This document shows positions 1,898 to 39,333 of a stretch of 64,000 bases of DNA, one piece after another. Made by a program: the position numbers and the translations under genes. Each line of letters begins with the position of its first letter. Within the stretch, counting starts at the first letter, position 1. The notes below the pieces were generated by a model, which saw only the letters and a program-made list of their open reading frames with translations, searched no databases and was not told where the DNA came from. Source of the DNA: Candidatus Altimarinota bacterium (GTDB lineage: Bacteria > Patescibacteriota > Gracilibacteria > UBA1369 > GCA-2718715); contig JBESAV010000001.1 of assembly GCA_041242255.1 (NCBI GenBank), forward strand, positions 608,001 through 672,000. The letters are read 5' to 3'.

Positions 1898-2969
1898 ATC
1901 AAAACTACAAACCCTAGTCGATGAACTTAAAGAAATCGACCAAGAACTAATGAACCCTGATGTAGTCAGTGATCAAAATAAGTACAAAAATCTAATGGTC
2001 CGAAGGAGCGAGCTAGAACCAGTTGTTGAAGCTTTCCAAAAATACAAAGCATCATCCAAGAACCGCAAAGACGCCGAACAAATGCTGCAAAACGAATCTG
2101 ACGCAGACATGAAAGAGTTTTATCAATCCGAAATCGAATCTTCAACTCAAAAAATAGAAAAACTAGAAGAAGAGCTCAAAAAAGCTCTAATTCCAAAAGA
2201 TCCAAAAGATTACAAAAATTGTATCATCGAAGTAAGAGCCGGTGCAGGTGGAGACGAAGCCTCACTTTTTGCTGGTGAGCTAGCTAGAATGTACATGAGA
2301 TATGGTGAACAAAATGGTTTCACCTCAGAGATCCTTAGTCAAAGTGACAATGATACAGGAGGAGTAAAAGAAATGATCATTCAAATGTCTGGTCCAAAAC
2401 CATATGGAACCTTTAAGTTTGAAAGTGGTGTCCACAGAGTTCAAAGAGTTCCAGTAACAGAGTCACAAGGTAGAATTCACACATCAGCTGCTTCTGTAGT
2501 AGTTTTACCTGAGGTTGATGACATAGATATCAACCTTGATCCAAACGACTTACGTATCGACGTATTCCGCTCTAGTGGACCAGGTGGACAATCTGTTAAT
2601 ACTACTGACTCCGCAATTCGTATAACCCATGAGCCAACCGGTATAACTGTTTCTTGTCAGGATGAAAAATCCCAACATAAAAACAAAGACAAAGCCATGG
2701 CTATTCTTAAATCACGTCTTTTCGACCTTGAGGAGGCAAAGCGTATGAAAGAATTAGGTGCCGCTAGACAATCAAGTATTGGGTCAGGTGATAGGTCAGA
2801 AAAAATTAGAACCTACAACTTCCCACAAGATAGAGTAACTGATCATCGTATTAAGCAATCATGGAACAACCTTCCATCAATCCTAGATGGAAACCTCCAA
2901 GAGATAATCGAGGCAATCCAAGTTGAAGAACAAGCTAAGCTCCTTGCTGAAGCATCAAAGACTGAGTAA
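1887..2969 (+). CDS. prfA: Peptide chain release factor 1
   Basis: GGQ motif, PVT specificity motif (RVPVTE), IRTYNFPQ. Confidence 0.97.
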   Translation: MELESKLQTLVDELKEIDQELMNPDVVSDQNKYKNLMVRRSELEPVVEAFQKYKASSKNRKDAEQMLQNESDADMKEFYQSEIESSTQKIEKLEEELKKALIPKDPKDYKNCIIEVRAGAGGDEASLFAGELARMYMRYGEQNGFTSEILSQSDNDTGGVKEMIIQMSGPKPYGTFKFESGVHRVQRVPVTESQGRIHTSAASVVVLPEVDDIDINLDPNDLRIDVFRSSGPGGQSVNTTDSAIRITHEPTGITVSCQDEKSQHKNKDKAMAILKSRLFDLEEAKRMKELGAARQSSIGSGDRSEKIRTYNFPQDRVTDHRIKQSWNNLPSILDGNLQEIIEAIQVEEQAKLLAEASKTE

Positions 2970-3338
2970 CCAGTTCTTAAGTTCAGCATTTTCAATCTTT
3001 TTCTTAAAAACATGAGCCCCGCTCATTAGTTGTTTAAGCTTTTCTGGGTTGGCTGATGAAACAATACATCTTTTTGATATATCATTTTTTTCACATACTT
3101 TCATGACTTCATCACCATTCCTTATGGGCATATTAAAGTCAGAAATTACAACCCACTCAGAAGGTTCAAAGCTCCCCAAAGCTTTAGCTTCCAAAAAACT
3201 ACAAGCTTCGAAACCATTTATAAATTCATAAATTTTATTTTCTGGATATTTATCTCTGATTAATTCACGGTGCATTCGAATCCAATCAATATCGTCATCC
3301 ACCACAACAAACTTGATATCCAGGTTTATATCAACCAT
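2955..3338 (-). CDS. Stand-alone response regulator receiver domain protein
   Basis: VVVDDD acidic pocket, ISDFNMP..NG phosphoacceptor, VSS, FKK; start moved to the ATG at 3338. Confidence 0.8.
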   Translation of the reverse strand: MVDINLDIKFVVVDDDIDWIRMHRELIRDKYPENKIYEFINGFEACSFLEAKALGSFEPSEWVVISDFNMPIRNGDEVMKVCEKNDISKRCIVSSANPEKLKQLMSGAHVFKKKIENAELKNWLLSL

Positions 3339-3374
3339 ACTACAACTAATTATTTTTCCTAATTTATCACAAAA

Positions 3375-4118
3375 ATGTCTAATTCTCCATCTGTCCCAGA
3401 GATTTTCAAGTTTCAAAAGTCACCAACTAAAAAATCAGATGTTTTTTTCGACTCACACGCTCACATCCAGTATCCAGAATTTAAAGATTTAGATCCATTT
3501 ATACAAAGAGCTAAGCAAATTGGACTAAGAGGAGTTGTCTGTGTCGGAATTGATCATAAAACATCTCAACAAGCCCTTGAGATTCATAAAGCTAACTCAG
3601 ACTACATTTACCCAACTATCGGAAACCACCCATACAATGCCGATCAAGACTTCCAACCAATCTACGATCAAGCCCATCAATACAAAGATTCCTTTATAGG
3701 AATAGGGGAAACTGGACTAGATTATTTCAAAAACAAACTTTCAAAAAGCGTCCAAAAAGAATCACTCTTAAATCACGCCAAACTAGCCAAAGAATTAGAC
3801 CTTCCTATCATCCTTCATCTAAGAGAGCTAGATGATTGCTGGGCAGATTGTTGGGATATTCTAAAAAAAGCGCAATACCCCAAAGCTATATTCCATTGTT
3901 TTACAGGTTCATTAGACCAAGCTAAAGAAATCTGGTCACATGGCTACAAAACATCCTTTTCTCTACTTATTACTTATCCAAAAAACCAAGTACTAAAAGA
4001 AATCTATCAAAACTGCCCGCCAGAACATCTACTTATTGAGACTGACTCTCCTTACCTCCCACCACAAGATCTAAGAGGTCAAACAAACGAACCCTCTTAT
4101 CTCTCGAATCTATCCTAG
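3375..4118 (+). CDS. tatD: TatD-family deoxyribonuclease (C-terminally short)
   Basis: FDSHAH, GxHP, IGETGLDY, LHxR, FHCFTG, ETDSPYL motifs. Confidence 0.92.
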   Translation: MSNSPSVPEIFKFQKSPTKKSDVFFDSHAHIQYPEFKDLDPFIQRAKQIGLRGVVCVGIDHKTSQQALEIHKANSDYIYPTIGNHPYNADQDFQPIYDQAHQYKDSFIGIGETGLDYFKNKLSKSVQKESLLNHAKLAKELDLPIILHLRELDDCWADCWDILKKAQYPKAIFHCFTGSLDQAKEIWSHGYKTSFSLLITYPKNQVLKEIYQNCPPEHLLIETDSPYLPPQDLRGQTNEPSYLSNLS

Positions 4119-6336
4119 AGTGGATACTTAAAACACACGCAAATGTCTCCAAATCAGTCCTATCCTGAACTGATAAATTAACATTGTATAGGGCGGTAGA
4201 GTTATGGATACTCAAAACTGTCTCTATATGCCCAGGCTCAAATTCACATGAGGTTTCGATATACATATTCTTCATTTCATCTATTTCTTCAATCAGCCTT
4301 TTCCTTTCATTTAGAGCAGAGTTAAGAAGGATTTCCCTAATAATTGCAGTCTGGTACTGCTCTTCCATAAACTTATTAGAAAACTTTCGACATAGATTTT
4401 TCAATGCATCACATACACTTTGATCCTCTAACACAACTTCGCTATCTTCATTTACAATAGTTGCTACAATTGAGTTAAACCTCAGTATGTCAATCTCTGA
4501 AATCTCACCCTCAAAAGCATATTTCCAGCTTAAGTACTCAATAGCTTTTTTAATCTCAGCTTCTGCAGGAAGCAGTCCAAGTTTATTTCTGGTATTTTCA
4601 CATTGTCTAGCTTTATATGAAGAGTGATCTTCTGGATAAAAAAGTATCATCATAATTTCTAATGGTACTGTTTCACCATCAACATCAAGATCCACAATAT
4701 ATTTAAAAGTCCTAATATTCTTAGAAAATTTATTCAAATGTGGTTCATCATTCAGCAAAGAAGTCTTAACTTTTCTAATCTTCACTAGTGAAGCCCCAAG
4801 TTTTTTTACCAAAACATGAGTCATTCCTAAACAAAACTGTTTCAACTGCGCGTTATCTTGAGCAATCTCAATCTCATATGGTATTCCAACTCTACACCTA
4901 AAGGTATCATCAACTCTATCGCTACCCCTCAAGATTTTCTCTACTGCTGAGTACTTGGTCTTAGGCTGACCAAATTCAAGTACCACTGGGTTCGTATGGC
5001 CATTATGCCTTATTTTAGACAGATATACTCTATTGTTATCATTAGTTTTTACTTCGATCATCTGAGTTTCCACATTAGAGCTTAGTCTCCTTTCTATCTC
5101 TGAATCTATTTCTCTAATCCTATCTTCAGATCCATAGTATTCAGGTAGCTGTGTTTGAGCCATCATATGACGTAAAATATAAGAACAAACTGAAACATTG
5201 TTCCAATCGCAAAAACTCTCAATGATTTTCTTAGATTCCAAAAACTCCCTTAGCTCAACTAAAAGTTCTCCATTCACAGCTCGAGCAATATCCAGCTTAA
5301 AGTTACCACTTAAGATAGTTATCTTCTTATCAAACTTATCAAACATATTTGCGTAACCTTCTTCAAAGCTTAAAGTTTCATCTTCAAGGTATCTAAAGTT
5401 ATTAGCTAACCCTAAAATTGCATCCGCCAACATATTTCGGTTCCTTTCATTATCCTCCAGCATTGTTTCATGTAGCTCAGAATCATTCAAAAACTCAAAC
5501 TTATTTGCCTTAGGCTTATCAAATAAAAGGTTGATAATAAACCTAGTCTCAGCTTGTGTAAGGGCTCTACCAATAAAATCATTAAAAATCTCAGAAGTCT
5601 GAAAGTGATCCAAAGTATCTTCCAATGAGTTCAACCAATCATTTAAGATATAAGTGGCTTTAAACAAATCACCAAGCTCTTCATCAGCTCTAAGACCTAG
5701 CCTTTCACTTATTTGCTTATTTTTTTCAATTAAGTCCCTCCTTTCATTAGTGCTATATTCAAGTCCTAATCTAACACTATCAGTAAGCTCAACGAAAATC
5801 TCTACATACTTCCTAGTCTGCCCTCTATTCAGTTTGTCTAATGTATAGTTGTCTTGTTCAACAATGGCCGCAATAACTTTTTCAGCAATATCATCATCTG
5901 CTACAATTCCATACCTTTCATACAAGTTTTTTGCCCCAATCATATAAAACTTTGAGTGGATCGGCTCTTCTAATTCTTGTTCCTCTCTAGTCTCGGTAAT
6001 AATTTTCTCCTCAAGTTGCTTCATAGTAGCCATACTCAAAGGCCTATTAGAGCTAATATTTATGCTGTCATAAAGTTCTCTATACTTACTCATTGGAGCA
6101 TTTAAGTATGGGTGAGCTAATCTATTTTCAGAATACAATTCTAATTTCTCCAGCTCATGGCATAACCTTTCATGATCCTCAAGTGAACTACTAGAGTCCA
6201 AAACTCTAAGCACAGATGGATTAATACCCATTTGACTTACGATATCAGAATAACTAGATTCATCATCTAAACTACTAAAATCATCATCTTCGATACTCAT
6301 ATTTCTAAGTAATCTGTCGATATCTTTCTCAGTCAT
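4033..6336 (-). CDS. Large hypothetical protein with divergent RelA/SpoT-like nucleotidyltransferase motifs
   Basis: 767-aa ORF with TTGACA-17-TATGAT promoter; PKTKYSAVEKILR, DDTFRCR, PLEIMM, HSSYK in synthetase motif order. Confidence 0.5.
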   Translation of the reverse strand: MTEKDIDRLLRNMSIEDDDFSSLDDESSYSDIVSQMGINPSVLRVLDSSSSLEDHERLCHELEKLELYSENRLAHPYLNAPMSKYRELYDSINISSNRPLSMATMKQLEEKIITETREEQELEEPIHSKFYMIGAKNLYERYGIVADDDIAEKVIAAIVEQDNYTLDKLNRGQTRKYVEIFVELTDSVRLGLEYSTNERRDLIEKNKQISERLGLRADEELGDLFKATYILNDWLNSLEDTLDHFQTSEIFNDFIGRALTQAETRFIINLLFDKPKANKFEFLNDSELHETMLEDNERNRNMLADAILGLANNFRYLEDETLSFEEGYANMFDKFDKKITILSGNFKLDIARAVNGELLVELREFLESKKIIESFCDWNNVSVCSYILRHMMAQTQLPEYYGSEDRIREIDSEIERRLSSNVETQMIEVKTNDNNRVYLSKIRHNGHTNPVVLEFGQPKTKYSAVEKILRGSDRVDDTFRCRVGIPYEIEIAQDNAQLKQFCLGMTHVLVKKLGASLVKIRKVKTSLLNDEPHLNKFSKNIRTFKYIVDLDVDGETVPLEIMMILFYPEDHSSYKARQCENTRNKLGLLPAEAEIKKAIEYLSWKYAFEGEISEIDILRFNSIVATIVNEDSEVVLEDQSVCDALKNLCRKFSNKFMEEQYQTAIIREILLNSALNERKRLIEEIDEMKNMYIETSCEFEPGHIETVLSIHNSTALYNVNLSVQDRTDLETFACVLSIHSRIDSRDKRVRLFDLLDLVVGGKESQSQ

Positions 6337-6447
6337 TCTTGAATTTTAATATACAGCATCATAATAATCATTTCGCAATATGTCAAGTCTCATCAACATG
6401 TAAATTACTTCAAATTCTTGTTAAGATTAGATAAATAATTTCAAAAC

Positions 6448-7653
6448 ATGAACTACCACCAAATCCAACCAATAGGCGACAAAAAAAACTCAGAATTTTT
6501 CAACGAAACACTACACAAAATATACAAACATAGAGACAAAAGTGGACTCACTCAAAACATTCAAAAAATCCACAGTTTTCATATTCAAGTAGATCCTGGA
6601 ACAGCAGAACAATACATAAGCGAGCTAATTCTGATGACTCCATTCCAGTACCAAAACTCATACCTTTTAGAAAATTACAAATTTCACGTATTAAAAGTTA
6701 CAGACCAAAACCCTTTATATATCATTCGTGAACCACATAATTCAGACATAGATCAAACCACAGAAAGCTATCACCTTAACAACTTATCTAAAGTTGGCAA
6801 AACAAAATCCCACACTCGTTACTTAGGTGAAGTTTATCAAGTACATGATCTCCAAGAGCTTCAACAAAAACTTTTAGACCAAGAAGTATACTTTGAACCA
6901 CAATATGATCACACAAACGTTCTTTGGACCGAAGCCTCCCCATTTACATGGAACAAACTCGGTTATATCCAAGAAGGAGTAAGTATTTTTCCAGACAATG
7001 CAAAACCTTATGTGTTTGCAGAAAAAACCGTGAATCAATTTCATAAATCCAAACAGCTTCAACACAAGTATCAAATAGACCAGTATGTATTACCAATCGA
7101 CCACTTCGCAACCAGAGTCTACTCACACGATAGGGAACACGCCATCTTAGAATACCTAACTTTAACCAATTACTATTTCTGGGGAGCCTACAATATTGGA
7201 GACCAAAACTCCTCTACAAATATTTGCCGAAACACAAATTCACTCCCAGAATCAATCTCGCCAGCTAAAGTGTTCACAGCCAACAACACACCTTATTACA
7301 TAAATCACATCACAAAACTCCCATCGCCAACCGAAAATTTCGTCAGAAACTATGGCCGAAGACTTCATCACATAGCCTATGCAGTAAGAGATGGTTACAT
7401 TGGAGATGAAAAAGATGACATAAAAAATGTTGATTTCGTTGTGACTCAACTCCAAAAATGTGAAGCAGAATTCCTCCAACATGTAATCGGAAGCTGTGCA
7501 GAAGGTCTTAAGCAAATTTTCTCAAAACCATCAAAATATAGTTTGCTCATAACTGAATACATTCAAAGATGTGATGATTTTCAAGGATTCTTTACCAAAG
7601 AAAACGTTGCTGCCCTTACCGAAGCAGCAGGCCACGACGACCTTATAACTTAG
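6448..7653 (+). CDS. VOC/4-hydroxyphenylpyruvate dioxygenase-like protein
   Basis: IDHFA, LHHIAY, LKQIFS, EYIQR...GFF..NV..L match the HPPD C-terminal domain with a His/His/Glu triad. Confidence 0.65.
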   Translation: MNYHQIQPIGDKKNSEFFNETLHKIYKHRDKSGLTQNIQKIHSFHIQVDPGTAEQYISELILMTPFQYQNSYLLENYKFHVLKVTDQNPLYIIREPHNSDIDQTTESYHLNNLSKVGKTKSHTRYLGEVYQVHDLQELQQKLLDQEVYFEPQYDHTNVLWTEASPFTWNKLGYIQEGVSIFPDNAKPYVFAEKTVNQFHKSKQLQHKYQIDQYVLPIDHFATRVYSHDREHAILEYLTLTNYYFWGAYNIGDQNSSTNICRNTNSLPESISPAKVFTANNTPYYINHITKLPSPTENFVRNYGRRLHHIAYAVRDGYIGDEKDDIKNVDFVVTQLQKCEAEFLQHVIGSCAEGLKQIFSKPSKYSLLITEYIQRCDDFQGFFTKENVAALTEAAGHDDLIT

Positions 7654-10914: not shown

Positions 10915-11157
10915 TTATTCCACCTCCTTCCCAACTAATTCCTTCAATTCCATTTCATATTTCAGCTCCAACCTCGACACATCAGACTTAAATTTTTCCT
11001 CTTCCTGATGAAGCTTTATCACAGCATTCTTCAGCTGAACCATTTTCCATTCAGGCATATATCTCAAACGTTCTATCATAGACTTCTTTTCGTCTATATC
11101 CAGAATTTCTAGATTCTTTATAAGACTAACTAACTCATCAACTAATTTTCTATTCAT
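10915..11157 (-). CDS. Small helical hypothetical protein, translationally coupled to the upstream giant ORF
   Basis: ATG at 11157 overlaps the stop of the 1204-aa gene (ATGAATAG). Confidence 0.65.
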   Translation of the reverse strand: MNRKLVDELVSLIKNLEILDIDEKKSMIERLRYMPEWKMVQLKNAVIKLHQEEEKFKSDVSRLELKYEMELKELVGKEVE

Positions 11158-14100
11158 AGCTAATCTTAGTAAACTTATTGATGTCACCGGCAAAGATTCC
11201 GTAACCAAGCCCAGCAACAGCTACTCCAGACCCAGCTTTAGCAGCTTTTGAAGTGACTTTTGATACCTTCGAAAGATCAGAAGCACTACTCAAAATCGAA
11301 CCAAGTTTCTCTAGTTTCTTAAAGTCACCAGCTTTAGTCAAAAGCTTGGCAGCACCACCAGCAGTTTTCGCTCCGAGCAAGAAATCTGTGGCAAGACTGG
11401 ATACTCCAAACGAAACCTTCTCTGCCATTAATTCATCATTCCCAACCTTATAAGCATCGTAACCTTCAGAAAGATCTTTATAAGTTCCCACAAATGGCAC
11501 AAGCCCCATTCCAAGACCAGTATATCCTTCTTTTTGAAAGCGAGCCATAAAAGTCATATTATTTTCAAATACATCAGCTGTTTGACGACCAAGCTCTATA
11601 CTCCCATCTGGATTCTCAACTATCTGAATCGTTCCAGCCGCAATATTCAAAACCTTACGAGAACCCCCTAGCCACCCTTTCTCAACTTCAACTTTATACT
11701 GAGCTTTTGGATATTTCTTTTGTAGGGCCTCAACTACTAGATCCAAGTTACCTTCAAACTTAGACTTATTCTTAAATATAAAATTCATAAACTCGTTATG
11801 GGCACTCAAGTACTCTCCTTTCATAGACCTCAAAGTTTCTGCTCTAACCCCATGATCTTCATCCAGTATTTTATTTAGATTCTTCTTACTCATAAGCTCA
11901 AGGATCTTATTTTCTACATCCACCACACCATCCAAGATTTCTCCTGGCACTTCTGAGGCATTTTCTTTTCGCTCAATGTCTTTATCTTTCTGATAAGCTT
12001 CATTCAAAGCCACAGCCCCACCAAAAGCAAGTGCTCCTGCTGCTCCCATCTTAGCCATTTTGGCACCCTTACTTAGTTTGGCGATCCTGTTTGCCTCAGC
12101 GGCCCTTTGAGCTCTTCGAATATCACCAAGTTTTTGACCAACTTTAGTTCCTTTCATATATGTAGAGGCTTCACGTATACTCTCGACGATCTTCAGATTC
12201 TTCATAGAGGAAACAGGTTGTAATGCAGCTAAGATCCTTTTTTCCACATCCAAAGCTATCTCAAAACTTCCCAAGATAGCCCTTAGTTGATCTCTATCAA
12301 TTTCCTTAAGAGATTTCAAACTTGCATAATTCTCTACACCCATAATCTTTACCATTTCATCAGACAATCCTCCAACTTCAATCTTCTCAATAAGTCCTTT
12401 TATGACTTTCGGATCAGTCACTCCATCAGGATATCTATTAAGTACATTACTTGAAAATATCTTCCCATCTCTTAGAGCAATAACCTCCCTTCTACTTTTC
12501 AGAATTAAATCCATACTTTCTTTAGCTTTTGAACTCAAGAGTTTCGACTTATGCTGAGCTAATTTAAGTCTACTCGAATCATTAATATTCCTCATACTTG
12601 AAACAAGCTCTCCATAACTAGATCTTTGCACCAATTTCTTAAATCCATCCGCCCTCAAGTTTTGAAACATCTCCCTAGCAGACATAGCAGTACTTACAGG
12701 CTTAGTAATAGGGTATGTCACCTTACTTGCAAGACTTTTACCTTTATCAATAAGACCTTTCTGGGCCACTCGTTCGTAGCCCACTACATGTTTGTAAGCA
12801 TTATCAATTACAACCTTCCCAAGTGCCTTTCCACTTCCAATCACTGTCATCACAGCCAGCCCACCTGCATATACTTTAGCGACATCCATCACATCATAGT
12901 CTTCATCCACAGCTGCTCTATAAACTTCTCCCCATACTGTATATGGCAACAAGATATACTCTGTTCCAATACTCAAGAAAAAGTTTTCTCCATCACTCAC
13001 TAGTACAGCTTCACCAGACTTCATTTTTTCATTTATAGCTCCACTCAATTCTTCAGGACTTCCAGTTAAAAATTCTCCAGCACGCCCTAAAAGTTCTCGC
13101 ATTTTTTGCATATATGCATCTCCCAAACTGTATCCCTCTCCTAAGGTTGCAAGAAAATCTATAGTATTCATATCAGAATACATCTTCAACCCAGGTGCTA
13201 GTAATTCTTTATCAGCCTGGCTGAGCTCAGAGTTTAAACCAATTTTTCTGGTTACAATACTTTCTTCAGGATTAATAGGTTTGTATACAAGGTTCAAATA
13301 GTTGTCACTGATCACAATCTCATATCTACTAATTTCTTTAAACTTATTAAATGCTTCAATCTTTTCTTTACTAACCTCACCTAGCTCATCTTGTCTAGAT
13401 TCACTCAAGAGCTCATAAGTTACTTTGCTAAACTCTTTTGCTCCATCTTCCCCCATCATTTTCTCTAAATATTCTGAGTGTTCTTTGCTTAGCACCTCTG
13501 ACTCCAAAAGCTTAATCCCTTTAAAATTCTCATATTTCACCTTTTGCTTAGGTGTTTGCCCCACCACATCCAATGTTGACTTAGCCACATTGGTCAGAGT
13601 GATGCTTTCCAAAATCTCATCTAAGCTTTTCTCTAGTTTCTCTTCGGACTTCATAACTCCCATAGCCTGCTCAAATTCACCCTTACTAATAGTCATACCT
13701 TGCACTAACTCTTTGTACATAGGGTTAGTTGATATAACTTTATTAAATTCTTCATAATCTTTCGGAAGGGGAGTGTTATATAAAACCTTCTCACCAATCT
13801 CATCCCATCTAGTGTTTTGCTGCATCAATCTTCCTCCAACCAAAAGCAAGATAACCTTTTTAGGATTATTCTTTGCATATTTTAGAGGCGCTAAACCAGT
13901 AGTCAGCATAAGCTTACCTGTCATTCCCACCGCATTTAGACCCTTGGTTGGTCCCATTTTGTAAGCCATGTAAGCTGCAACAGTAGACGACATAGCTGGA
14001 TTATCTCGCAAGATAGCTATTGTTTCTTTAGAATAAGTTTTCACTTTTTTAGTAAATTTTCCAGCAGTTACTCCAAGCTTCTCTCCAGTAAAAGGCCATT

Positions 14101-14764
14101 CCTTATACATCTCCCCAGACTCAATTTTCTTATCAATTTTTTTCTCATATTTCTCTCCACTCACAGTTTCAACAAGATTATCCCTTATATCAGTCCAGTT
14201 CTTTCTTTTAGCCAAAAGCTCCAGAAGGTTCTTATGAACTAATTCTCCTTCATCCACACCCGCACTCCTCAAGATATCTTTCCACCACACTAACTTAGCT
14301 TTTTCATCTTCAGGCATCTCAGCAGCTTTGATGGCATTCTTAACCAAATAATCCTTCACCTTCACCGCAGAAGCCAACATCGATCCAGCCAAAGGAATCT
14401 TCTTCAAATCATCCGGAATACCATCTATAACTCCTTTTACTTGATCAACAGCAGTCTTAGACACTTCCATCACATTTTCTTTTGCTGCAGTAACATTTTT
14501 CTTAGCTTCATCCAACTCATACATGAATTCACTAATCTTTTCCCCAAAAAGCCTACTACTAAGATACTTAATACCTGCATAGGGATTTTCAAAAAAATCT
14601 TTAACCTTATCAAAAAAACTCAACTTCCATTCCTTGGTCTTACGATCTGCAATCTCTACCAATGAACCTTTTTCAGCTACAAAATCCTTTTCTATTGCTT
14701 CAAAAAAGTTCTCCCGCTCTTGAGTAACACTCTCATTTTTTACTTCAATATTTCTGGCAGCCAT
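11150..14764 (-). CDS. Large hypothetical helical protein with C-terminal pre-toxin-TG-like segment
   Basis: 1204-aa ORF; several Gly/Ala-rich hydrophobic helices; GLVPFVGTYKD motif near the C-terminus. Confidence 0.7.
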   Translation of the reverse strand: MAARNIEVKNESVTQERENFFEAIEKDFVAEKGSLVEIADRKTKEWKLSFFDKVKDFFENPYAGIKYLSSRLFGEKISEFMYELDEAKKNVTAAKENVMEVSKTAVDQVKGVIDGIPDDLKKIPLAGSMLASAVKVKDYLVKNAIKAAEMPEDEKAKLVWWKDILRSAGVDEGELVHKNLLELLAKRKNWTDIRDNLVETVSGEKYEKKIDKKIESGEMYKEWPFTGEKLGVTAGKFTKKVKTYSKETIAILRDNPAMSSTVAAYMAYKMGPTKGLNAVGMTGKLMLTTGLAPLKYAKNNPKKVILLLVGGRLMQQNTRWDEIGEKVLYNTPLPKDYEEFNKVISTNPMYKELVQGMTISKGEFEQAMGVMKSEEKLEKSLDEILESITLTNVAKSTLDVVGQTPKQKVKYENFKGIKLLESEVLSKEHSEYLEKMMGEDGAKEFSKVTYELLSESRQDELGEVSKEKIEAFNKFKEISRYEIVISDNYLNLVYKPINPEESIVTRKIGLNSELSQADKELLAPGLKMYSDMNTIDFLATLGEGYSLGDAYMQKMRELLGRAGEFLTGSPEELSGAINEKMKSGEAVLVSDGENFFLSIGTEYILLPYTVWGEVYRAAVDEDYDVMDVAKVYAGGLAVMTVIGSGKALGKVVIDNAYKHVVGYERVAQKGLIDKGKSLASKVTYPITKPVSTAMSAREMFQNLRADGFKKLVQRSSYGELVSSMRNINDSSRLKLAQHKSKLLSSKAKESMDLILKSRREVIALRDGKIFSSNVLNRYPDGVTDPKVIKGLIEKIEVGGLSDEMVKIMGVENYASLKSLKEIDRDQLRAILGSFEIALDVEKRILAALQPVSSMKNLKIVESIREASTYMKGTKVGQKLGDIRRAQRAAEANRIAKLSKGAKMAKMGAAGALAFGGAVALNEAYQKDKDIERKENASEVPGEILDGVVDVENKILELMSKKNLNKILDEDHGVRAETLRSMKGEYLSAHNEFMNFIFKNKSKFEGNLDLVVEALQKKYPKAQYKVEVEKGWLGGSRKVLNIAAGTIQIVENPDGSIELGRQTADVFENNMTFMARFQKEGYTGLGMGLVPFVGTYKDLSEGYDAYKVGNDELMAEKVSFGVSSLATDFLLGAKTAGGAAKLLTKAGDFKKLEKLGSILSSASDLSKVSKVTSKAAKAGSGVAVAGLGYGIFAGDINKFTKISYE

Positions 14765-14908: not shown

Positions 14909-17542
14909 ATGAAATTAAAGTCTTATTTAAGTTTAATCATAGCAGTACTGGCTATGACTACTTCCTTGGCTTTAGCAGCCATCTCAGCAAACTATCCATT
15001 TGATGTTGCCGTAAACTACGTTATATCCAATGATGACCTTATTGTGGTTTCTGGTGGTACAGCTGACTCGCAGATCGTTGATGAGTATCAGGTAAATGAT
15101 ACTACTGCCAGTTTTCAAACCCCACAATCTGCTACCCTCTTAACTGATGGTAATAATTTTGTAACTTATACGAGCGGTGGAGATATATATGCAAAAGTGA
15201 TAAATCAAGATGGTGAAACAATTGTTGCAGAAACCATAGTTAACTCAGTAACAAATGCCACCCAGTTCGAAGCAAACTCATCCCTGATTACCACAGATAG
15301 CGGAGACGACATTGTTCTAGTTACTTGGACATCTTTTGATACCGCAACTGATACTTCTTTCGCTGGTGATACCCAGGATACTACTTTAAATCACATTGCT
15401 GCTAGAGGTTTTAGGTATGATGGAACATCACTAGCCGAAGAAATAGCTGAGTTTCAAGTTAATGAAAACGTTGACTCACTACAAAATGAGTCAAGCTCTA
15501 CATCTTATAATGACGGAGCAAATGATAAAATTCTAATCACATGGCACAGTGCTGATGACGCTCTAGAAGCAAATAATGGAAGTACAAATATCGCCGCTCG
15601 TACTTTTGATATCGATGGAACAAATCCCGGAACAGAATTTTTAGTAAATTCAATTTCAATCAATGACGAATACTATCCAGAAGTTCAAACTTTAGACAAT
15701 GGAGATGTAGCTTTTACGTACCAAACTAGTATTAACATTGCCATAAAAATCCTAGACAACGGAGACTTAAATGGAGCACCAGCACTAGCACAAACTATAG
15801 TAAATACGACAGCAACAGCCACAGATGCATACCCACAATTCGAACAAACATATGATGGCAATCTATTCATCACTTGGATTATGGAAGATGATGGTGACAT
15901 TGATGGTATAGCTAGAAGTGTATATCAAACAGATGGAACACAAGTAGCAGCAGAAGCTGTAGTTAATACACAAACTGACAGTGTTCAGGAGGCTCATTCA
16001 ACTGCACTATTAAATGATCCTAGTAATCCTGGTCAAGATATAGTGTTTATTGCTTACTACACTGAGTCTTCAACTTACAATGGAGGAACAGATTCCGAAA
16101 TAGTCGGTAAAGTATATAACCCAGATGGGTCAGCCTCTTCAGGTGAAGTCTTAATAAACCAAAACCTAACTAATTTCCAATACAGCCCAGTAGTTTCTCC
16201 AACCAATGATGGAGTAGTCCTAGTATTATGGGAGTCAGAGGATGTTGCCGCAGTCGTTGATGGTGATGGCTCTTATGTTGCAGCGATACCTCTAGGCGAT
16301 GAAGTAAATAACGTATATCCAACTACCAACCCTTACATTCAACCAGTAACAGCATATTCATACTCAGAACCATTAAGAGCCTTCATCGAAACTGAACTAG
16401 CCCTTGAAAATAGCGGTACAAATTATCAAATCTCAGATGATGCTGGTACGACTTGGTACTACTATGACGGATTTAACTGGGTGACAACTGAAGAGTTAGA
16501 CTCAGAGTTTAACTCAGCTTCAACAGTAACTACAAACATCTCAGACTTTACATCCAATGGTACATTCTTATGGAGAGCCTATATAAACTCAGATGATGCA
16601 GTAAGATTCGGTAATGCTGCTACTTCATTAGACAATATTGAAATTCAAGAAAATGAAGCTCCAGTTATCACTTCCGAAGCAGGTCAAGACACTGTAAACA
16701 AAACTTTAAATCCTGGAGATACAGAAGTATCAACTCTTGAATACACCACTGACTCACTTGCTAGTATGGTGTCCGAAGATCTATCTGGTGCAGATGCAGC
16801 ACTATTCCAGTTAGCAAGTGGTGGTCTGCTAAACCCTGATCCAGTACTTTCTTTCTTATCAGCAAGTCCAGCTGCAGATGCCAATGCTGATGGAACTTAT
16901 GAAGTTACGATCACTGTTACAGATGATGTAGGTTCAACAGACACCCAAAGCTTTTTGATATCTTTCGCATCAAGCGGAGGTAGTTCATCTGGAGGTGGGT
17001 CAGCTTCATCAAATGTTGACACTTCAAGCCCATTCGCAAACCAGACATCAACACCAAGTAATCCATCTTCGCCACAAGAACAAGCCGATGTTTGTGATAA
17101 AGAAGAAATGCTTAAAGACATCAATAAATTCAAAGACTTCGACAAAGAAATATCTAGATATGAAGCTGTTAAATACGTACTTCTAATTAACTGTATTGGT
17201 CTAGACGAGTTGCCAGCAGACGGAAGCTATCCTTTCTCAGATATCAATACATCTGAAGAAAACTTAGCTAGAGTCCTTTACACTGCCTTCAACCGCGGAA
17301 TAATCTACGGATACCCAGATGGAGAATTCAAGCCAAACAGAACTATCAATTACGTTGAACTTCTAGCTATTAACTCAAGAGCTCAAGGTCTTGCCGATGA
17401 CAATTCAGTAGGGGAGAACTGGTTCCAAAGTTACCTCTCACTAAGAATAACAATCGAGCTAGCAATTAGTGGGGTAGGTTACGAAGACCCAATCCTAGGT
17501 AGAAACTTCTATGTAATTACTAAATCTTTCTTAGAAAGTTAA
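14909..17542 (+). CDS. Secreted surface protein with beta-rich repeats, cadherin-like domain and C-terminal SLH module
   Basis: Signal peptide; recurring EFxVN...Q..P repeats; NEAPVIT...DADGTYEVTITVTD; GS linker; GIIYGYPDGEFKPNRTIN SLH. Confidence 0.8.
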   Translation: MKLKSYLSLIIAVLAMTTSLALAAISANYPFDVAVNYVISNDDLIVVSGGTADSQIVDEYQVNDTTASFQTPQSATLLTDGNNFVTYTSGGDIYAKVINQDGETIVAETIVNSVTNATQFEANSSLITTDSGDDIVLVTWTSFDTATDTSFAGDTQDTTLNHIAARGFRYDGTSLAEEIAEFQVNENVDSLQNESSSTSYNDGANDKILITWHSADDALEANNGSTNIAARTFDIDGTNPGTEFLVNSISINDEYYPEVQTLDNGDVAFTYQTSINIAIKILDNGDLNGAPALAQTIVNTTATATDAYPQFEQTYDGNLFITWIMEDDGDIDGIARSVYQTDGTQVAAEAVVNTQTDSVQEAHSTALLNDPSNPGQDIVFIAYYTESSTYNGGTDSEIVGKVYNPDGSASSGEVLINQNLTNFQYSPVVSPTNDGVVLVLWESEDVAAVVDGDGSYVAAIPLGDEVNNVYPTTNPYIQPVTAYSYSEPLRAFIETELALENSGTNYQISDDAGTTWYYYDGFNWVTTEELDSEFNSASTVTTNISDFTSNGTFLWRAYINSDDAVRFGNAATSLDNIEIQENEAPVITSEAGQDTVNKTLNPGDTEVSTLEYTTDSLASMVSEDLSGADAALFQLASGGLLNPDPVLSFLSASPAADANADGTYEVTITVTDDVGSTDTQSFLISFASSGGSSSGGGSASSNVDTSSPFANQTSTPSNPSSPQEQADVCDKEEMLKDINKFKDFDKEISRYEAVKYVLLINCIGLDELPADGSYPFSDINTSEENLARVLYTAFNRGIIYGYPDGEFKPNRTINYVELLAINSRAQGLADDNSVGENWFQSYLSLRITIELAISGVGYEDPILGRNFYVITKSFLES

Positions 17543-22387: not shown

Positions 22388-25300
22388 ATGTTTTACACAA
22401 AACAAATCAAAAAAGGCTTAATGCTCTTTTTGTTTTTGGGAGTTCTTTCGCTTACTTCCATAGCAAGTGCCGCCACAATCACAGTTAATACCGATGCCGA
22501 TAACACCACAGCAGGTGATGGTGTATGTACATTAAGAGAGGCGATAAATAATTCTAATGGTGATGTAGACACCACTTCAAGCGATTGTACACCGGGAGCA
22601 GGCGCAGACACTATTGTATTTGATCTCCCAGGAGCAACTAGAATAACAGTAGCCACTGAATTACCAGCTATTACAGACACAGTTGATATTGTAGGTCAAT
22701 CTCAAGGAGCCTCTTCATGTCTAGATAAAAACACTTTAGAAATGGAGCTCACTACTAGTCAGCAGGGAATATCAGGTTTAATCTTTGACTCTGGTTCAAA
22801 TGGGAGTTCACTCAGTGGGTTTTACATTCATAATTTTACAGCTGCATCTTTTTCAGGTTTCGGAGCAGTCGAATTAAACACAGAGGTACAAGTTTCATGT
22901 AATGTTTTCGGTATAGACGCTACCGGATCTGTTTCAGAAAATATGTATGGGATAATTGTTGAAGGAGCAAATTCTGTAATCGGAGGGCCAAATCCAGAAG
23001 ATGGAAATGTAATTTCAGGTAGTGCTATAGATGGAGTCAGAATTTCTGGTGCTTCTACAACAAATGTAACCGTATCGAATAACTATATTGGTACTAACAT
23101 AGCTGGATCTTCTGAAATACCCAATCAAAGTCAAGGTGTAAGAACAGTTTTAAGTTCTCAGGCAGAGATAGGACCCAACAATGTTATCTCAGGTAACAAC
23201 TCATCAGGGATAAGAATTACTTCACCAAATGTAAATGTATTTGGGAATATTGTTGGTCTTAATGCAGCTGGAGATGCAGCTATACCAAACAGCACTGGAA
23301 TATTCTCAACTGCAGGTGACTTAATTATAGGAGGTGGTACTGAAGCTGATAGGAATATTATCTCTGGTAATGATGCGTCTGGTATATTTATTGACACTTC
23401 AGATTCTAACATCCAAATCCAAGGTAATTATATAGGAGTTAGTCAAGATGGCTCAGCTTCTATAAGTAATGGCGGTGATGGAGTTAACATCGAAGCTATT
23501 GCCCCAATTTTAATTGGAGGTGATACCCTTGGACAGGGTAATGTTATTTCAGGGAATTCCGGTAATGGTATTCATACTCAAAACAATAGTAATGGTGCAG
23601 AAATTAAAGGGAATATAATAGGTTTAAATGCTGCTGGTGATACTGCAGTTCCTAATTTATTTGACGGGATACTTGGTAGAGCTAACAACCTAGTTATAGG
23701 TGGAGACACTATTGCCGAAAGAAATATTATTTCAGGAAATGGTAGCGATGGTATTGAAAGTTCATTTTTCTACTCTGGTCATACAATCCAAGGTAATTAT
23801 ATAGGAGTTAGTCAAGATGGCTCTTCAGATATTGGTAATGGAAGTACTGGTATCACAGCAACAGATAGCCAAATTGGAGGTCTCAATCCTGGTGAAGGAA
23901 ACATAATTTCAGGAAATGGTGATGTAGGTCTAGACATTTCATCAGGTACGATTCAAGGTAATTTAGTTGGACTAAACGCATCTGGAACCTCTGCTATACC
24001 AAACGACACTGGTGGAATATCTGCATTTGGAACAGCAGTTGAAGAAAATATAATCTCAGGAAACACAGGTGTAGGTTTGGAGCTTGGAGGTGACAATGCA
24101 ACTATATTTGGTAATTACATTGGAACAAGTTCAGATGGTACATTTGCAGTACCCAACACATCTCATGGAGTAGTTTTATCAGGTGATTCTATTCAGGTAG
24201 GTAGTACTGTCTCAGGTGAAGAAAATATAATCTCAGGAAACGGAGGTTCAGGTATAGTTTTAGATGGTACCAACATTGATATAATAGGTAATCTGATCGG
24301 TGTTTCAATCACTGAAGACGCAACAGGAAACGAGGAGTCTGGTATACAGGTTATACAGCAGTCGGAACAAGTATTTGATGGTGACGGATTTGTTACCGAA
24401 TTTTCTCCATCAAATAACATCACTATCGGTGGATTAACTTCTGACCACTCTAATACAATATCCGCAAATAGTATTGCAGGAATTTTAGTAGATGATTCAA
24501 ACACTAATATTTCAATTTTAGGAAATAATATCGGAACTGATAGTTTAGGTAACGTAGTCCCAGGTGACTTGGTAAATGATGCATTAGGTAATGGGCAATT
24601 CGCTTCAGCAGGAGAAGATTTCGGAGGTATCATTGCTAGATCTTCTTCAAGTGTATCAATAGGTAACGCAGACGGTTCAGGAGCAAATGTAATAGCTGGT
24701 AATACTGGTCCTGGAATCTTAGTTTCGCAAAATCTAACTCTTGCCGAATCAACAGTTACAATATTATCTAATTCAATATTTAGTAATTCTGGTCTTGGGA
24801 TCGACTTAGCAAATGACAGTGACGGTGACGGATTCTCAGAGTTAGAACAGGATGCCACATTAAACGACGCTGGCGATGTAGATACTGGTGCTAACTCACT
24901 ACAAAACTTTATAGAATTAACAGCTAAAACCGACAACGGTGCCAACTACACTGTAGACTATACTTTGGATACAATCTCAGGTGACTATCTTGTTCAGTTT
25001 TACGAAAGTTCACAAGCAGATCCAAGTAATTATGGAGAAGGTGAAACTTTATTAACTTCAGAAAGCATTACTCATACAGGTGGTGGTTCTGAGTCTTTCA
25101 CTGCAACTTTCTCAGTTACTGAACCAACTACATTAGTAGCAACTGTAACTCAAGACCTAGGTGGAGGATCATACGGAGCGACTTCAGAGTTCAGCTCAAA
25201 TGAAATTATAGTAGAGGAACCAGCTCCTGCTCCAAGCGGAGGAGGAAGCAATGGTTCAGGTGTTGATGCAAGCAATACAAATCCATTTGGAGGAGAAGAC

Positions 25301-32654: not shown

Positions 32655-34136
<1,482 letters not shown>

Positions 34137-34253
34137 TATAGGAGATGCCACACTCTAGTAATAGAAGTGTCAGGTATGATTGAACGGTAGACTTCATGTC
34201 TACGAGACATTCAAGTAATTATTTCTCTGTTGTGCACTGATTGTTAAAACATT

Positions 34254-34281
34254 AAAACTACCCTAATAGGTAGTTTTTTTT
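34254..34281 (+). terminator. Intrinsic terminator after 16S rRNA
   Basis: AAAACTACC-CTAATA-GGTAGTTTTTTTT. Confidence 0.8.
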
Positions 34282-34320
34282 GTGTTTTATGTTATAATTA
34301 TAAGATTTAAATAAATCTTC

Positions 34321-35151
34321 ATGGTTATGATGCCATCATATAGTGATTTCGAAAGCAATGAAGGAGCTAACCTAAGTCTAGATAACCAAAGTCTTGAGCC
34401 AGGAACAGAACTTCTAGATCAAGCAGATATTAATTTTCTGATGGAAGAGATAGTATCAGTATTAGACGATCCAAAGATAAATAGCCAAGCAATATTCTTA
34501 AACAACACCCCTCAAACAAAAGGTGAACTATATGAGTACACTGAAACTATATATGGTATTGCTCAGCAAGCATTAATAAATGATTCTGACCTACTAGGAA
34601 ACGCTCAGCTTTTTAGTCTTTTAGATAAATGTACTCAGATGCTTAAGCAAAATCTACCAGAATCAGAGCACAAAAACTATCAGACTGCACTTGTTGAATC
34701 TTATATGATAGGACTCCAGGCGGGATTATTTCTAGAGGAATCTACAGATACAAACCAGACTGAAGAATCACTAGATTTTCAAGATCATTTTTTCTCTCCT
34801 GAAGAAGTAGTTAGGGCTATGCAAATGTATGAAAGTTTTGGTCTAAAAAGAGATGGTGCAATCATCGATAGTATTAATGAGATTAATGTAATTGGGGCTA
34901 ATGAGTTAAGAACACTAGGCGAAACAATTTATAAATCGTATTCCACTGCACTAGAAAGAGGTTACCGTCCAACTCCGCTAGACTACGAACTACTATCCGG
35001 GATATCAAAAAACCTCAATATACTATCGAGGTCTAATAATTATAACTATGCTAATGATATTCTAATTCAAGCTGAGCTTGGTGGAATAGCAGAGCAGACT
35101 AGTAAAGCTACAGCTAAGGTACTAAACCAAGATGCTAACTCTTCTTCCTAA
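34321..35151 (+). CDS. Acidic hypothetical protein between 16S and 23S genes
   Basis: 276-aa ORF with TGtTATAAT extended -10 upstream. Confidence 0.75.
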   Translation: MVMMPSYSDFESNEGANLSLDNQSLEPGTELLDQADINFLMEEIVSVLDDPKINSQAIFLNNTPQTKGELYEYTETIYGIAQQALINDSDLLGNAQLFSLLDKCTQMLKQNLPESEHKNYQTALVESYMIGLQAGLFLEESTDTNQTEESLDFQDHFFSPEEVVRAMQMYESFGLKRDGAIIDSINEINVIGANELRTLGETIYKSYSTALERGYRPTPLDYELLSGISKNLNILSRSNNYNYANDILIQAELGGIAEQTSKATAKVLNQDANSSS

Positions 35152-35727: not shown

Positions 35728-35752
35728 ATGCTTAATCATCAGAATATAAAAG

Positions 35753-36379: not shown

Positions 36380-39333
<2,954 letters not shown>

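What the first reader, a model, noticed from the sequence alone, without database searches (positions are those of the whole stretch)
4033..6336. 767-aa orphan hiding a divergent RelA/SpoT-type synthetase domain
Seen: GQPKTKYSAVEKILR, then DDTFRCR, IRTFKYIV, PLEIMM and HSSYKARQ, in order, within long helical flanks. Known: RSH/SAS synthetases carry RxKxxxSxxxK, DxxxxR, YxSxH, ExQxRT and H..YK in that order, and toxSAS variants modify tRNA or make (pp)pApp. Here the YxSxH and ExQ positions are altered and no HD, TGS or ACT domain is visible. Inference: a novel nucleotidyl/pyrophospho-transferase, possibly a host-directed effector of an episymbiont.
Basis: partly seen in the sequence, partly recalled or inferred. 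Interest (0 to 1): 0.7.

Follow-up and report, generated by a model that had tools for sequence, protein, structure and literature searches.

The report
Very divergent RelA/SpoT-like synthetase protein
A large, fast-evolving protein of a tiny marine bacterium hides a barely recognisable copy of the enzyme domain that bacteria use to make "alarm" nucleotides, beside a normal copy elsewhere in the genome, so it probably makes or modifies something new.

Summary
The ORF is real: window 4033-6336, minus strand, 767 aa, and all five quoted motifs are present in order. Pfam, NCBIfam, PADLOC and PHROGs do not recognise it. Profile-profile comparison of an 18-member family alignment with 27 canonical long RSH proteins aligns residues 456-565 to the RelA/SpoT synthetase domain, motif for motif (86.6 %, E 4.4e-6). 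Reversed, shuffled and unrelated-family controls gave P 0.15-0.99. PDB, genome and Pfam searches all point the same way. The only residues invariant in all 18 members are K459, K467, D477, S538, E560, H571 and Y574. ExQ is canonical in 10 of 18 relatives. No HD, TGS or ACT domain was found. The gene is chromosomal, syntenic in its taxonomic family, co-occurs with a normal Rel, and diverges far faster than its neighbours. There is no antitoxin-like partner, signal peptide or secretion context, so the "host-directed effector" idea has no support. Verdict: a new, highly divergent RSH-superfamily branch, probably an active pyrophosphotransferase whose acceptor is unknown.

The parts
4033..6336 (-). 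Whole ORF 'X', 767 aa (P0001), stop codon included
   Evidence: homologues
4597..4971 (-). Residues 456-580: RSH synthetase (SYNTH)-like catalytic region. It holds K459-x3-S463-x3-K467, D477-x2-R480-x-R482, N535-x-F537-S538...K545, E560-x-M562 and H571-x2-Y574-K575.
   Evidence: hhalign; invariants
4522..5259 (-). Residues ~360-605: the only part conserved across all family branches. It starts near W378 and includes the catalytic region.
   Evidence: BLASTP and phmmer ranges; alignments
5260..6336 (-). Residues 1-359: acidic N-terminal region. Residues 1-120 have net charge -13 and 121-360 have -19. Homology between sub-branches is only partly detectable.
   Evidence: no Pfam family
4033..4521 (-). 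Residues 606-767: acidic C-terminal region (residues 601-767 have net charge -12), specific to the sub-branch. It ends in ...KESQSQ.
6358..6386 (-). Promoter-like site TTGACA-17-TATGAT (11 of 12 matches), ending 22 nt upstream of the ATG, in the 111-bp divergent intergenic region
   Evidence: consensus match only
3375..4118 (+). tatD (TatD_DNase, E 4.3e-59). It is convergent with X and the 3' ends overlap by 86 nt. It lies next to X in 8 of 10 genomes whose context was read, and one gene away in a ninth (G003).
6448..7653 (+). Conserved 401-aa protein with only a weak Glyoxalase_4 hit. It is divergent from X and shares the intergenic region.

Best explanation
X is the founding example of a lineage-restricted, very divergent branch of the RelA/SpoT-homologue (RSH) superfamily. 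Residues ~456-580 are a SYNTH-type domain of the nucleotidyltransferase fold. This homology is shown at profile level; I put it at about 0.85. The domain keeps the ATP-phosphate-binding Lys/Ser/Lys helix, the Mg2+-binding Asp (D477), the catalytic Glu (E560) and the H-x-x-Y helix. It has lost the first Arg of the RxK motif. It has remodelled the acceptor-binding NGYxSxH strand. It lacks about 8 residues after the ExQ strand. I infer that it is an active ATP-dependent pyrophosphotransferase that puts pyrophosphate on the 3'-OH of an acceptor other than the usual GDP/GTP pocket would take; I put this at about 0.6. The acceptor could be a different nucleotide or an RNA 3' end. I also infer that the acidic N- and C-terminal regions, which are specific to each sub-branch, regulate or autoinhibit the core. 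X is a cytoplasmic, chromosomally inherited paralogue that works beside the genome's normal bifunctional Rel. It is not a toxin-antitoxin toxin and not a secreted effector. Its very fast divergence suggests that it tracks a changing partner or signal.
For: (1) hhalign of family alignment A3 (18 sequences) against A4 (27 canonical long RSH of the same phylum) gave Prob 86.6 %, E 4.4e-6. P0001 residues 456-565 align to residues 247-350 of the genome's own Rel, which is the Pfam RelA_SpoT span 247-370. A2 (10 sequences) against A4 gave 78.5 %, E 1.7e-5, and that alignment also covers H571/Y574 against HWxY. An independently built alignment gave E 1.1e-4.
(2) Controls. Two reversed alignments and 10 column shuffles scored 10.7-20.0, P 0.29-0.99. 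Five unrelated real families scored 12.1-20.8, P 0.15-0.9. The real score is 60.3.
(3) Five disjoint sub-branch subsets each put their best hit at RSH profile columns 249-262 onward, with P from 2e-5 to 0.17.
(4) The A3 HMM against PDB: the top 8 of 18 listed hits are all RSH synthetases (Rel 7oiw, 7ohg, 6s2t, 6s2v, 8acu; YjbM 5ded, 5f2v, 5dec), E 0.011-0.042, all at the first two motifs.
(5) The family HMM on genomes: 8 of 10 weak hits fall in canonical long RSH proteins. These are L013, L014, L016, L017 and L051-L054.
(6) The Pfam RelA_SpoT model itself hits family member L007 below threshold: 19.8 bits, E 0.001, and 23.3 bits, E 4.5e-5 per genome.
(7) The only columns invariant in all 18 members, at 13-45 % identity to P0001, are K459, K467, D477, S538, E560, H571 and Y574. 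S463, R480 and K545 are at least 90 % conserved. ExQ is kept in 10 of 18 members.
(8) FaRel2 D90 (Mg2+) and Y128 (acceptor stacking) are essential in a characterised RSH (passages of 10.1101/2021.04.30.441581). The Asp equivalent is invariant here.
(9) Context. X lies among gyrB-prmC-prfA-RR-tatD-X-401aa-radA in 6 relatives and, with X and the 401-aa gene in swapped order, in a seventh. It is absent from that place in G008. A canonical Rel (HD_4+RelA_SpoT+TGS+ACT) is also present in G000 and in 7 of the 9 other family genomes.
(10) X has its own promoter-like site.
Against: No 3D model could be made, so the fold is inferred from sequence profiles only, and the best hhalign probability is 86.6 %, not above 95 %. 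P0001 alone, and its closest sub-branch alone, show no significant match. Pfam gave nothing at E up to 10. A1 against A4 gave E 0.12-0.17. Only 1 of 18 members gets any Pfam RelA_SpoT hit. Several residues invariant in the 27 canonical RSH are not kept: R248 corresponds to Q457, which is variable, and D315, G324, R349, M353 and G360 are also lost. Q of ExQ is Met in P0001. The acceptor-stacking Tyr has no secure counterpart: I541, F537. These losses could mean an inactive domain. Activity, product and regulation by the flanks are all inference. No expression data were available.
Confidence: 0.6

Rival explanations
1. X is a catalytically dead RSH-derived pseudoenzyme. It would be a nucleotide-binding sensor or scaffold that keeps the ATP or alarmone pocket but transfers nothing.
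For: The invariant RSH Arg of RxK is lost (Q457; variable in the family). ExQ has become ExM in 8 of 18 members, P0001 among them. About 8 residues after the ExQ strand are deleted. The Tyr strand is remodelled.
Against: The few invariant columns across 18 members at 13-45 % identity are the Mg2+/catalytic Asp and Glu and the phosphate-binding Lys residues. A pure binding module would not need both acidic residues. R480 is present in 17 of 18 members and could replace the lost Arg; that is inference.
Confidence: 0.17
2. X is a toxic or exported RSH enzyme, like a toxSAS, CapRel, Tas1/Apk or EAS. It would be a fused, autoinhibited abortive-infection toxin, or an effector delivered to a host cell.
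For: X diverges far faster than its neighbours: BLASTP from P0001 to same-family orthologues gives E >= 0.02, while neighbours are 39-80 % identical. The flanking regions differ between sub-branches. This pattern is typical of conflict proteins. Characterised divergent RSH domains are toxins (passages of PMC7229694; abstract and section 9 of PMC12691689). A fused C-terminal antitoxin-like region cannot be excluded.
Against: No conserved small partner ORF was found, and the neighbours are housekeeping genes. X has a fixed syntenic position in 7 of 8 same-family relatives with readable context, which argues for vertical inheritance rather than a mobile island. No PADLOC family matched in 0 of 6 members tested, and no significant PHROG. 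No hydrophobic N-terminus or membrane segment was found. No WXG/LXG, PAAR/Rhs, MuF, XopAD or DUF4157 domain was found by Pfam; remote or structural detection was not possible. The protein is strongly acidic (net -44), unlike the basic tRNA-binding surface described for FaRel2.
Confidence: 0.13
3. The domain is not an RSH homologue at all. The motif similarity would be convergent or chance, and the core would have another fold.
For: No hit passes a curated threshold. The closest sub-branch alone is not significant. There is no structural test.
Against: Six independent kinds of search converge on the same about 100 residues, in the same register, while shuffled, reversed and unrelated-family controls fail.
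Confidence: 0.1

Closest known systems
Long RSH enzymes (Rel / RelA / SpoT), SYNTH domain, Pfam PF04607
   Same: The catalytic region aligns motif for motif: K-x3-S-x3-K helix, Asp strand, N...S strand, E-x-Q/M strand, H-x2-Y-K helix. The overall length is similar; by coincidence the genome's own Rel is also 767 aa.
   Different: No HD hydrolase, TGS, AH/RIS or ACT domains. The SYNTH-like domain starts at about residue 456 instead of about 247. The RxK Arg is lost. The acceptor strand carries a 4-residue insertion or shift. About 8 residues are missing after ExQ. X scores below the Pfam threshold. X evolves much faster than Rel.
Small alarmone synthetases (RelQ/YjbM, RelP, RelV)
   Same: Stand-alone SYNTH catalytic core without a hydrolase. 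YjbM structures are among the top PDB profile hits (E 0.036-0.042).
   Different: SAS proteins have about 200-250 residues. X carries about 450 extra N-terminal and about 165 extra C-terminal residues of no known family.
toxSAS toxins (FaRel, FaRel2, PhRel, PhRel2, CapRel) and Tas1/Apk, EAS exported synthetases
   Same: Divergent SYNTH domains with altered acceptor use: tRNA CCA end or adenine nucleotides (passages of 10.1101/2021.04.30.441581; PMC7229694; PMC12691689). Like X, they co-occur with a housekeeping RSH.
   Different: Those sit in bicistronic or tricistronic TA-like operons. Alternatively they carry a Sec signal or a secretion-recognition domain, or sit beside immunity or secretion genes. 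X has none of these that could be detected. X is fixed in a housekeeping neighbourhood.

Membership tests
RSH superfamily (SYNTH domain, PF04607 RelA_SpoT) | Score at or above Pfam's gathering threshold (27 bits) | tested here: not met
   P0001 got no hit at E up to 10. Of the 18 members, 1 (L007) got a hit, at 19.8 bits, and 23.3 bits in the genome search.
RSH superfamily (SYNTH domain, PF04607 RelA_SpoT) | Significant profile-profile homology to the SYNTH domain, in register | tested here: met
   hhalign E 4.4e-6 (86.6 %) and 1.7e-5 (78.5 %). Controls gave P 0.15-0.99. Subsets agreed.
RSH superfamily (SYNTH domain, PF04607 RelA_SpoT) | RxKxxxSxxxK ATP-binding helix | tested here: inconclusive
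   K459 and K467 are invariant in 18 of 18, and S463 is at least 90 % conserved. The Arg (R248, invariant in the 27 RSH) corresponds to Q457, and that column is variable.
RSH superfamily (SYNTH domain, PF04607 RelA_SpoT) | Mg2+-coordinating Asp (FaRel2 D90 equivalent) followed by Arg (DxxxxR) | tested here: met
   D477 is invariant in 18 of 18. R482 is Arg in 12 of 18 and R480 in 17 of 18. The role of the Asp is taken from passages of 10.1101/2021.04.30.441581.
RSH superfamily (SYNTH domain, PF04607 RelA_SpoT) | Acceptor-stacking Tyr in NGYxSxH (FaRel2 Y128 equivalent) | tested here: inconclusive
   The alignments disagree: I541, F537. N535 is present in 15 of 18, position 537 is aromatic in 14 of 18, and S538 is present in 18 of 18.
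RSH superfamily (SYNTH domain, PF04607 RelA_SpoT) | Catalytic ExQ strand | tested here: inconclusive
   E560 is invariant in 18 of 18. Gln is kept in 10 of 18 members, and Met replaces it in 8 of 18, P0001 among them.
RSH superfamily (SYNTH domain, PF04607 RelA_SpoT) | SYNTH three-dimensional fold with the motifs around one pocket | not testable with these tools
   Structure prediction did not accept jobs and was then switched off, so no fold search was possible.
RSH superfamily (SYNTH domain, PF04607 RelA_SpoT) | ATP-dependent pyrophosphate transfer to a 3'-OH | not testable with these tools
   This needs biochemistry.
Long RSH (Rel/RelA/SpoT) | HD hydrolase (or pseudo-HD) N-terminal to SYNTH, and TGS...ACT C-terminal regulatory domains | tested here: not met
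   No HD, TGS or ACT by Pfam. hhalign with alternative alignments found nothing outside the SYNTH region (second hit E 0.59). The genome's true Rel has all of them.
toxSAS toxin-antitoxin modules | Conserved, often overlapping, two- or three-gene operon with an antitoxin (criterion from passages of PMC7229694) | tested here: not met
   X is convergent with tatD and divergent from the 401-aa gene. No small co-oriented ORF is conserved. PADLOC matched 0 of 6 members.
Exported alarmone synthetases / secreted RSH effectors (Tas1/Apk, EAS) | Sec signal peptide, or an N-terminal secretion-recognition domain (WXG/LXG, XopAD, MuF, DUF4157, Rhs/PAAR), or secretion/immunity gene neighbours (criteria from section 9 of PMC12691689) | tested here: not met
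   The N-terminus is acidic and no hydrophobic segment was found. Pfam found no such domain in the 18 members. The neighbours are housekeeping genes. Remote or structural detection of such domains was not possible.

The most novel reading that the evidence does not exclude
X defines a new RSH-superfamily clade whose remodelled acceptor pocket makes a product not yet known from RSH enzymes. That product could be a new pyrophosphorylated nucleotide messenger, or a 3'-pyrophosphorylated RNA or DNA end. The persistently adjacent TatD 3'-5' nuclease might process such an end. The extreme divergence of X would then reflect an arms race or host-tracking in ultra-small, probably symbiotic, bacteria.
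Probability: 0.25. Interest if true: 0.75.

Novelty: new variant of a known kind. Interest (0 to 1): 0.55.

Why it matters
RSH enzymes are the core of bacterial stress signalling. Their divergent offshoots have repeatedly turned out to have new chemistry: (pp)pApp synthesis, tRNA 3'-pyrophosphorylation, exported synthetases. This branch lies below the detection limit of the Pfam model. The published RSH survey whose passages I read classified RSH proteins with an HMM-based method (PMC7229694), so a branch this divergent may have been missed there; I did not check its subfamily lists. The branch has a new architecture and sits in reduced genomes of about 1 Mb, where every retained 2.3-kb gene is likely to matter. 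It also shows that the conserved catalytic skeleton (K, K, D, E, H, Y) can survive when almost all other sequence has changed. That gives a compact definition of what the fold needs, and a testable candidate for a new nucleotide or RNA-end modification.

Tried and rejected
Structure. Structure prediction was not accepting jobs and again, after the stated wait. At it reported that it was switched off. No model and no fold search were therefore possible, and I did not try to get a fold by another tool.

Searches that found nothing useful.
- The search for related loci found no relatives in genome contigs with P0001 or with the 401-aa neighbour. It found none in metagenome contigs with A1 or A5. 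Organism names and the contexts of P0002-P0008 and P0010 were therefore not obtained.
- The search for homologous proteins with profile A2 and with the P0005 core added no members.
- HD, TGS or ACT remnants in the flanks: none.
- Three extra RelA_SpoT-bearing ORFs in other genomes (L056-L058) were tested as possible bridges. They are ordinary long RSH and do not match the X profile.
- The Pfam tRNA_lig_kinase hit at residues 635-698 (16.6 bits, below the 22.7 cut-off, 1 of 18 members) was rejected as noise.
- C-terminal regions show no detectable homology between sub-branches. N-terminal regions do so only for 3 of 36 sub-branch pairs.

Expression. No RNA holder is listed. The 5 DNA holders are marine metagenome runs of 2 studies, and 4 of them may be the source of this DNA.

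Read laying. This gave contigs only. Pieces from run X5 differ by 20/463 and 34/883 letters inside X. Pieces over gyrB-prmC and radA differ by 8/865 and 7/859, and a piece over the RR gene by 13/403. More distant pieces were also present (58/463, 89/815, 49/426). The table of differences inside X was not shown, so no dN/dS could be computed. I treat this as a weak hint only.

Literature. 'alarmone synthetase' + 'Patescibacteria' returned 0 papers. 'ppGpp' + 'Candidate Phyla Radiation' + 'RelA' returned 11 papers, of which 9 were listed; none appears from its title or abstract start to concern such a protein (listing only). PMC7159879 was checked by passages and is not relevant. Supplements were closed, so the RSH subfamily lists in the supplementary datasets of PMC7229694 could not be checked for this branch.

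Rows dropped.
- L012 (G005): the orthologue is split into 366-aa and 337-aa frames on a 2.9-kb contig. It was left out of all alignments.
- L003: 99.8 % identical to P0009. It was left out of A3 but was present in the set.
- L025: its ORF touches the locus end. It was left out of A4 but was present in the set.
Full report
WHAT IS THERE. Window 4033-6336 holds a 767-aa ORF on the minus strand with an ATG start. The plus strand is closed in that frame. The window is part of a complete single-contig genome of 1,000,477 bp, 98.5 % complete. G+C is about 35-39 % around the gene. No tool named the organism. Sampled genomes of its phylum are 0.5-2.0 Mb, so I infer a CPR/Patescibacteria-like bacterium. 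DNA runs that hold the gene are labelled marine metagenome.

LIBRARIES ARE SILENT. Pfam gave only a sub-threshold tRNA_lig_kinase hit (16.6 bits against a cut-off of 22.7). NCBIfam gave nothing, and single-sequence PDB search gave only noise. PADLOC gave nothing for 6 members, and PHROGs gave nothing below E 0.011.

RELATIVES. The word-indexed search found 3 homologues of 756-775 aa at 40-44 % identity. The exhaustive phmmer search of 1.84 billion representatives found 9 proteins at E <= 0.001, the query among them. Six of these are distant (P0005-P0010, 23-28 % identity) and match only residues ~190/360-640.

A profile of the 10 sequences (A2) was then run on 61 related genomes. It hit an ORF of 705-867 aa in 8 of the 9 other genomes of the same taxonomic family, and a 366-aa frame of an apparently split gene in the ninth (G005). 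It also hit one genome (G043) of another family of the order.

In a sample of 301 genomes from across the phylum, only G000 gave a strong match. The family is therefore small and lineage-restricted.

I built A3 from 18 sequences: P0001-P0010 plus 8 same-family orthologues. L012 was left out because the gene is split, and L003 because it duplicates P0009.

IS THE CORE AN RSH SYNTHETASE DOMAIN? I built A4 from 27 canonical long RSH proteins of the same phylum. Ten proteins were Pfam-scanned. Five of them, including the genome's own Rel (L001), carry HD_4+RelA_SpoT+TGS+ACT.
- Main result. hhalign of A3 against A4 gave probability 86.6 %, E 4.4e-6, score 60.3. It aligns P0001 456-565 with L001 247-350. 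Pfam places RelA_SpoT at L001 247-370.
- Second alignment. A2 against A4 gave 78.5 %, E 1.7e-5, and extends through H571/Y574 opposite HWxY.
- Independent alignment. A MAFFT alignment made separately in the script box gave E 1.1e-4 over 456-580 against 247-373.
- Negative controls. Two reversed alignments and ten column shuffles scored 10.7-20.0 (P 0.29-0.99). Five real unrelated families built from the neighbouring genes scored 12.1-20.8 (P 0.15-0.9).
- Disjoint subsets. Five disjoint sub-branch subsets each placed their best hit at RSH columns 249-262 onward. P was 2e-5, 1e-3, 2.1e-3, 0.037 and 0.17.
- PDB. The A3 HMM put eight RSH synthetases (Rel and YjbM/RelQ) in ranks 1-8 of 18 listed hits, E 0.011-0.042.
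- Genome hits. Of the 10 weak genome hits of the family profiles (E 4e-5 to 5e-4), 8 lie in canonical long RSH proteins and 2 (L015, L055) do not.
- Pfam on a member. The Pfam RelA_SpoT model reaches one family member, L007, below threshold: 19.8 bits and 23.3 bits.
Each line of evidence is modest, but all agree in place and register. I put homology at about 0.85.

No structure could be predicted.

WHAT IS CONSERVED. Across the 18 members (13-45 % identity to P0001) only seven columns are invariant: K459, K467, D477, S538, E560, H571 and Y574. S463, R480, K545, W378 and G514 are at least 90 % conserved. In the hhalign register these correspond to RSH positions as follows:
- K459 to K250
- S463 to S254
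- K467 to K258
- D477 to D272
- R482 to R277
- E560 to E345
- H571 to H364
- Y574 to Y367
The change is therefore recent and local to a sub-branch.

Several RSH features are not kept:
- The invariant RSH Arg of RxK corresponds to Q457, and that column is variable.
- D315, G324, R349, M353 and G360 are also lost.
- About 8 residues after the ExQ strand are missing.
- The NGYxSxH strand is remodelled. One alignment puts I541-R-T-F-K545 opposite Y-x-S-x-H after a 4-residue insertion. The other puts N535-K-F537-S538 opposite N-G-Y-x.
- Position 537 is aromatic in 14 of 18 members, N535 is kept in 15 of 18, and S538 in 18 of 18. I therefore favour N-x-[FY]-S as the counterpart of N-G-Y-x-S.
- Five orthologues carry an 80-100-residue insertion between this strand and the E strand.
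In FaRel2 the equivalent Asp (Mg2+) and Tyr (acceptor stacking) are essential (passages of 10.1101/2021.04.30.441581).

My reading is that the donor/ATP and catalytic half is under strong constraint and the acceptor half has changed.

THE FLANKS. No HD, TGS or ACT signal was found. The protein is very acidic, with net charge -44. Only residues 456-600 are net basic (+4). It has no hydrophobic segment: the highest 19-residue hydropathy is 1.12. N-terminal regions are detectably homologous only between some sub-branches, 3 of 36 pairs above 20 % probability. C-terminal regions show none. Low P+G in the flanks (3.0-5.4 %, against 9.0 % in the core) fits helices but does not prove them.

CONTEXT.
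- Neighbours. The neighbours in G000 are gyrB, prmC, prfA, a weak receiver-domain ORF, tatD, X, a conserved 401-aa protein (weak Glyoxalase_4 hit), radA and lgt.
- Conserved order. The order tatD, X, 401-aa gene is kept in G001, G002, G004, G006 and G007. It is kept as far as the contig goes in G009.
- Exceptions. In G003, X and the 401-aa gene have swapped places. G008 has an unrelated context. In G043, from another family, X follows tatD on the same strand, after aroB, aroA and an MFS gene.
- tatD next to X. tatD is thus directly adjacent to X in 8 of 10 genomes read and one gene away in G003. In two different arrangements this is a hint of linkage, no more.
- No partner gene. X is convergent with tatD, with the 3' ends overlapping by 4-86 nt, and divergent from the 401-aa gene. 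No small co-oriented partner exists.
- Promoter. A TTGACA-17-TATGAT site lies 22 nt upstream of the ATG.
- Canonical Rel. A canonical Rel is present in G000 and in 7 of the 9 other family genomes. The two without it are 83 % complete and 10 % contaminated respectively.

RATE. Between G000 and same-family genomes the neighbours are 39-80 % identical, and the receiver-like ORF 23-35 %. BLASTP from P0001 finds the syntenic X orthologues only at E >= 0.02. X is the fastest-diverging gene of the block. Strain-level contigs point weakly the same way.

MECHANISM. Shown: profile-level homology to the RSH SYNTH domain, retention of the Lys/Ser/Lys, Asp, Glu and His/Tyr positions, loss of all other RSH domains, chromosomal synteny, co-occurrence with Rel, and fast divergence.

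Inferred: X binds ATP-Mg2+ as RSH enzymes do and transfers pyrophosphate to a 3'-OH of an acceptor that differs from GDP/GTP. The acidic flanks gate the active site. The gene serves lineage-specific regulation.

My rough split is as follows:
- active enzyme, about 0.6, of which the acceptor is:
  - a nucleotide, about 0.3
  - an RNA end, about 0.2
  - something else, about 0.1
- pseudoenzyme, about 0.17
- toxin or effector, about 0.13
- not RSH at all, about 0.1

COMPARISON WITH WHAT IS KNOWN. The published RSH classification I saw used an HMM-based method and lists 30 SAS, 11 SAH and 13 long-RSH subfamilies. toxSAS are recognised by TA-like operons, and Tas1 is a divergent RSH fused to PAAR (passages of PMC7229694). 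Exported synthetases carry Sec signals or WXG/LXG, XopAD, MuF, DUF4157 or Rhs/PAAR domains, or sit by secretion or immunity genes (abstract and section 9 of PMC12691689). X meets none of these criteria as far as sequence tools can see. I found no paper on such a protein (listings only), and supplements were closed.

VERDICT. The core interpretation (divergent RSH synthetase domain, no HD/TGS/ACT) is supported. The effector idea is unsupported. I class X as a new variant of a known kind and give it moderate interest. The missing structure and biochemistry are the decisive gaps.

Noticed in passing
window 32655-39588: The rRNA operon runs 16S (32655-34136, +), 23S (36380-39333, +) and 5S (39481-39588, +). 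The 16S-23S spacer is about 2.2 kb. It holds a 276-aa ORF (34321-35151, +) with no Pfam family. tRNA-Ile(GAT) and tRNA-Ala(TGC) lie at 35650-35829 on the opposite (minus) strand, whereas the usual arrangement is co-oriented spacer tRNAs.
   Followed up: partly
window 11150-14764 (-), 14909-17542 (+), 22388-25822 (+): A 1204-aa ORF with no Pfam family lies next to two large probable surface proteins that carry S-layer homology domains: one of 877 aa, and one of 1144 aa that also has a beta-helix region.
   Followed up: partly
window 2955-3416 (-): A 153-aa ORF has a sub-threshold receiver-domain hit (23 bits against a cut-off of 30.2). It overlaps the 3' end of prfA and the 5' end of tatD. It is syntenic in relatives but only 23-35 % identical, so it is the second fastest-diverging gene of the block.
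   Followed up: partly
window 6448-7653 (+): A 401-aa protein is conserved at 50-58 % identity in relatives, yet has only a weak Glyoxalase_4 hit (E 0.0047). It is transcribed divergently from X across a 111-bp shared intergenic region.
   Followed up: partly
L005, L006, L007, L010, L011 (orthologues of X): Five same-family orthologues carry an 80-100-residue insertion between the K545 strand and the E560 strand of the catalytic core.
   Followed up: no
window 4033-4060 (-), C-terminus of X: Five of 18 family members (P0001, P0002, P0003, P0005, P0006) end in an acidic stretch followed by S-x-S-Q as the last residues. The others do not. The meaning is unknown.
   Followed up: no
L012 (G005:C82): In one relative the X orthologue appears as two overlapping frames of 366 and 337 aa on a 2.9-kb contig. 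This could be a frameshift, a pseudogene or an assembly error.
   Followed up: no
L001 (G000:C1:907083-910454): The genome's canonical bifunctional-type Rel (HD_4, RelA_SpoT, TGS, AH/RIS, ACT) also has exactly 767 aa. This is a coincidence of length with X; no similarity exists outside the synthetase region.
   Followed up: yes
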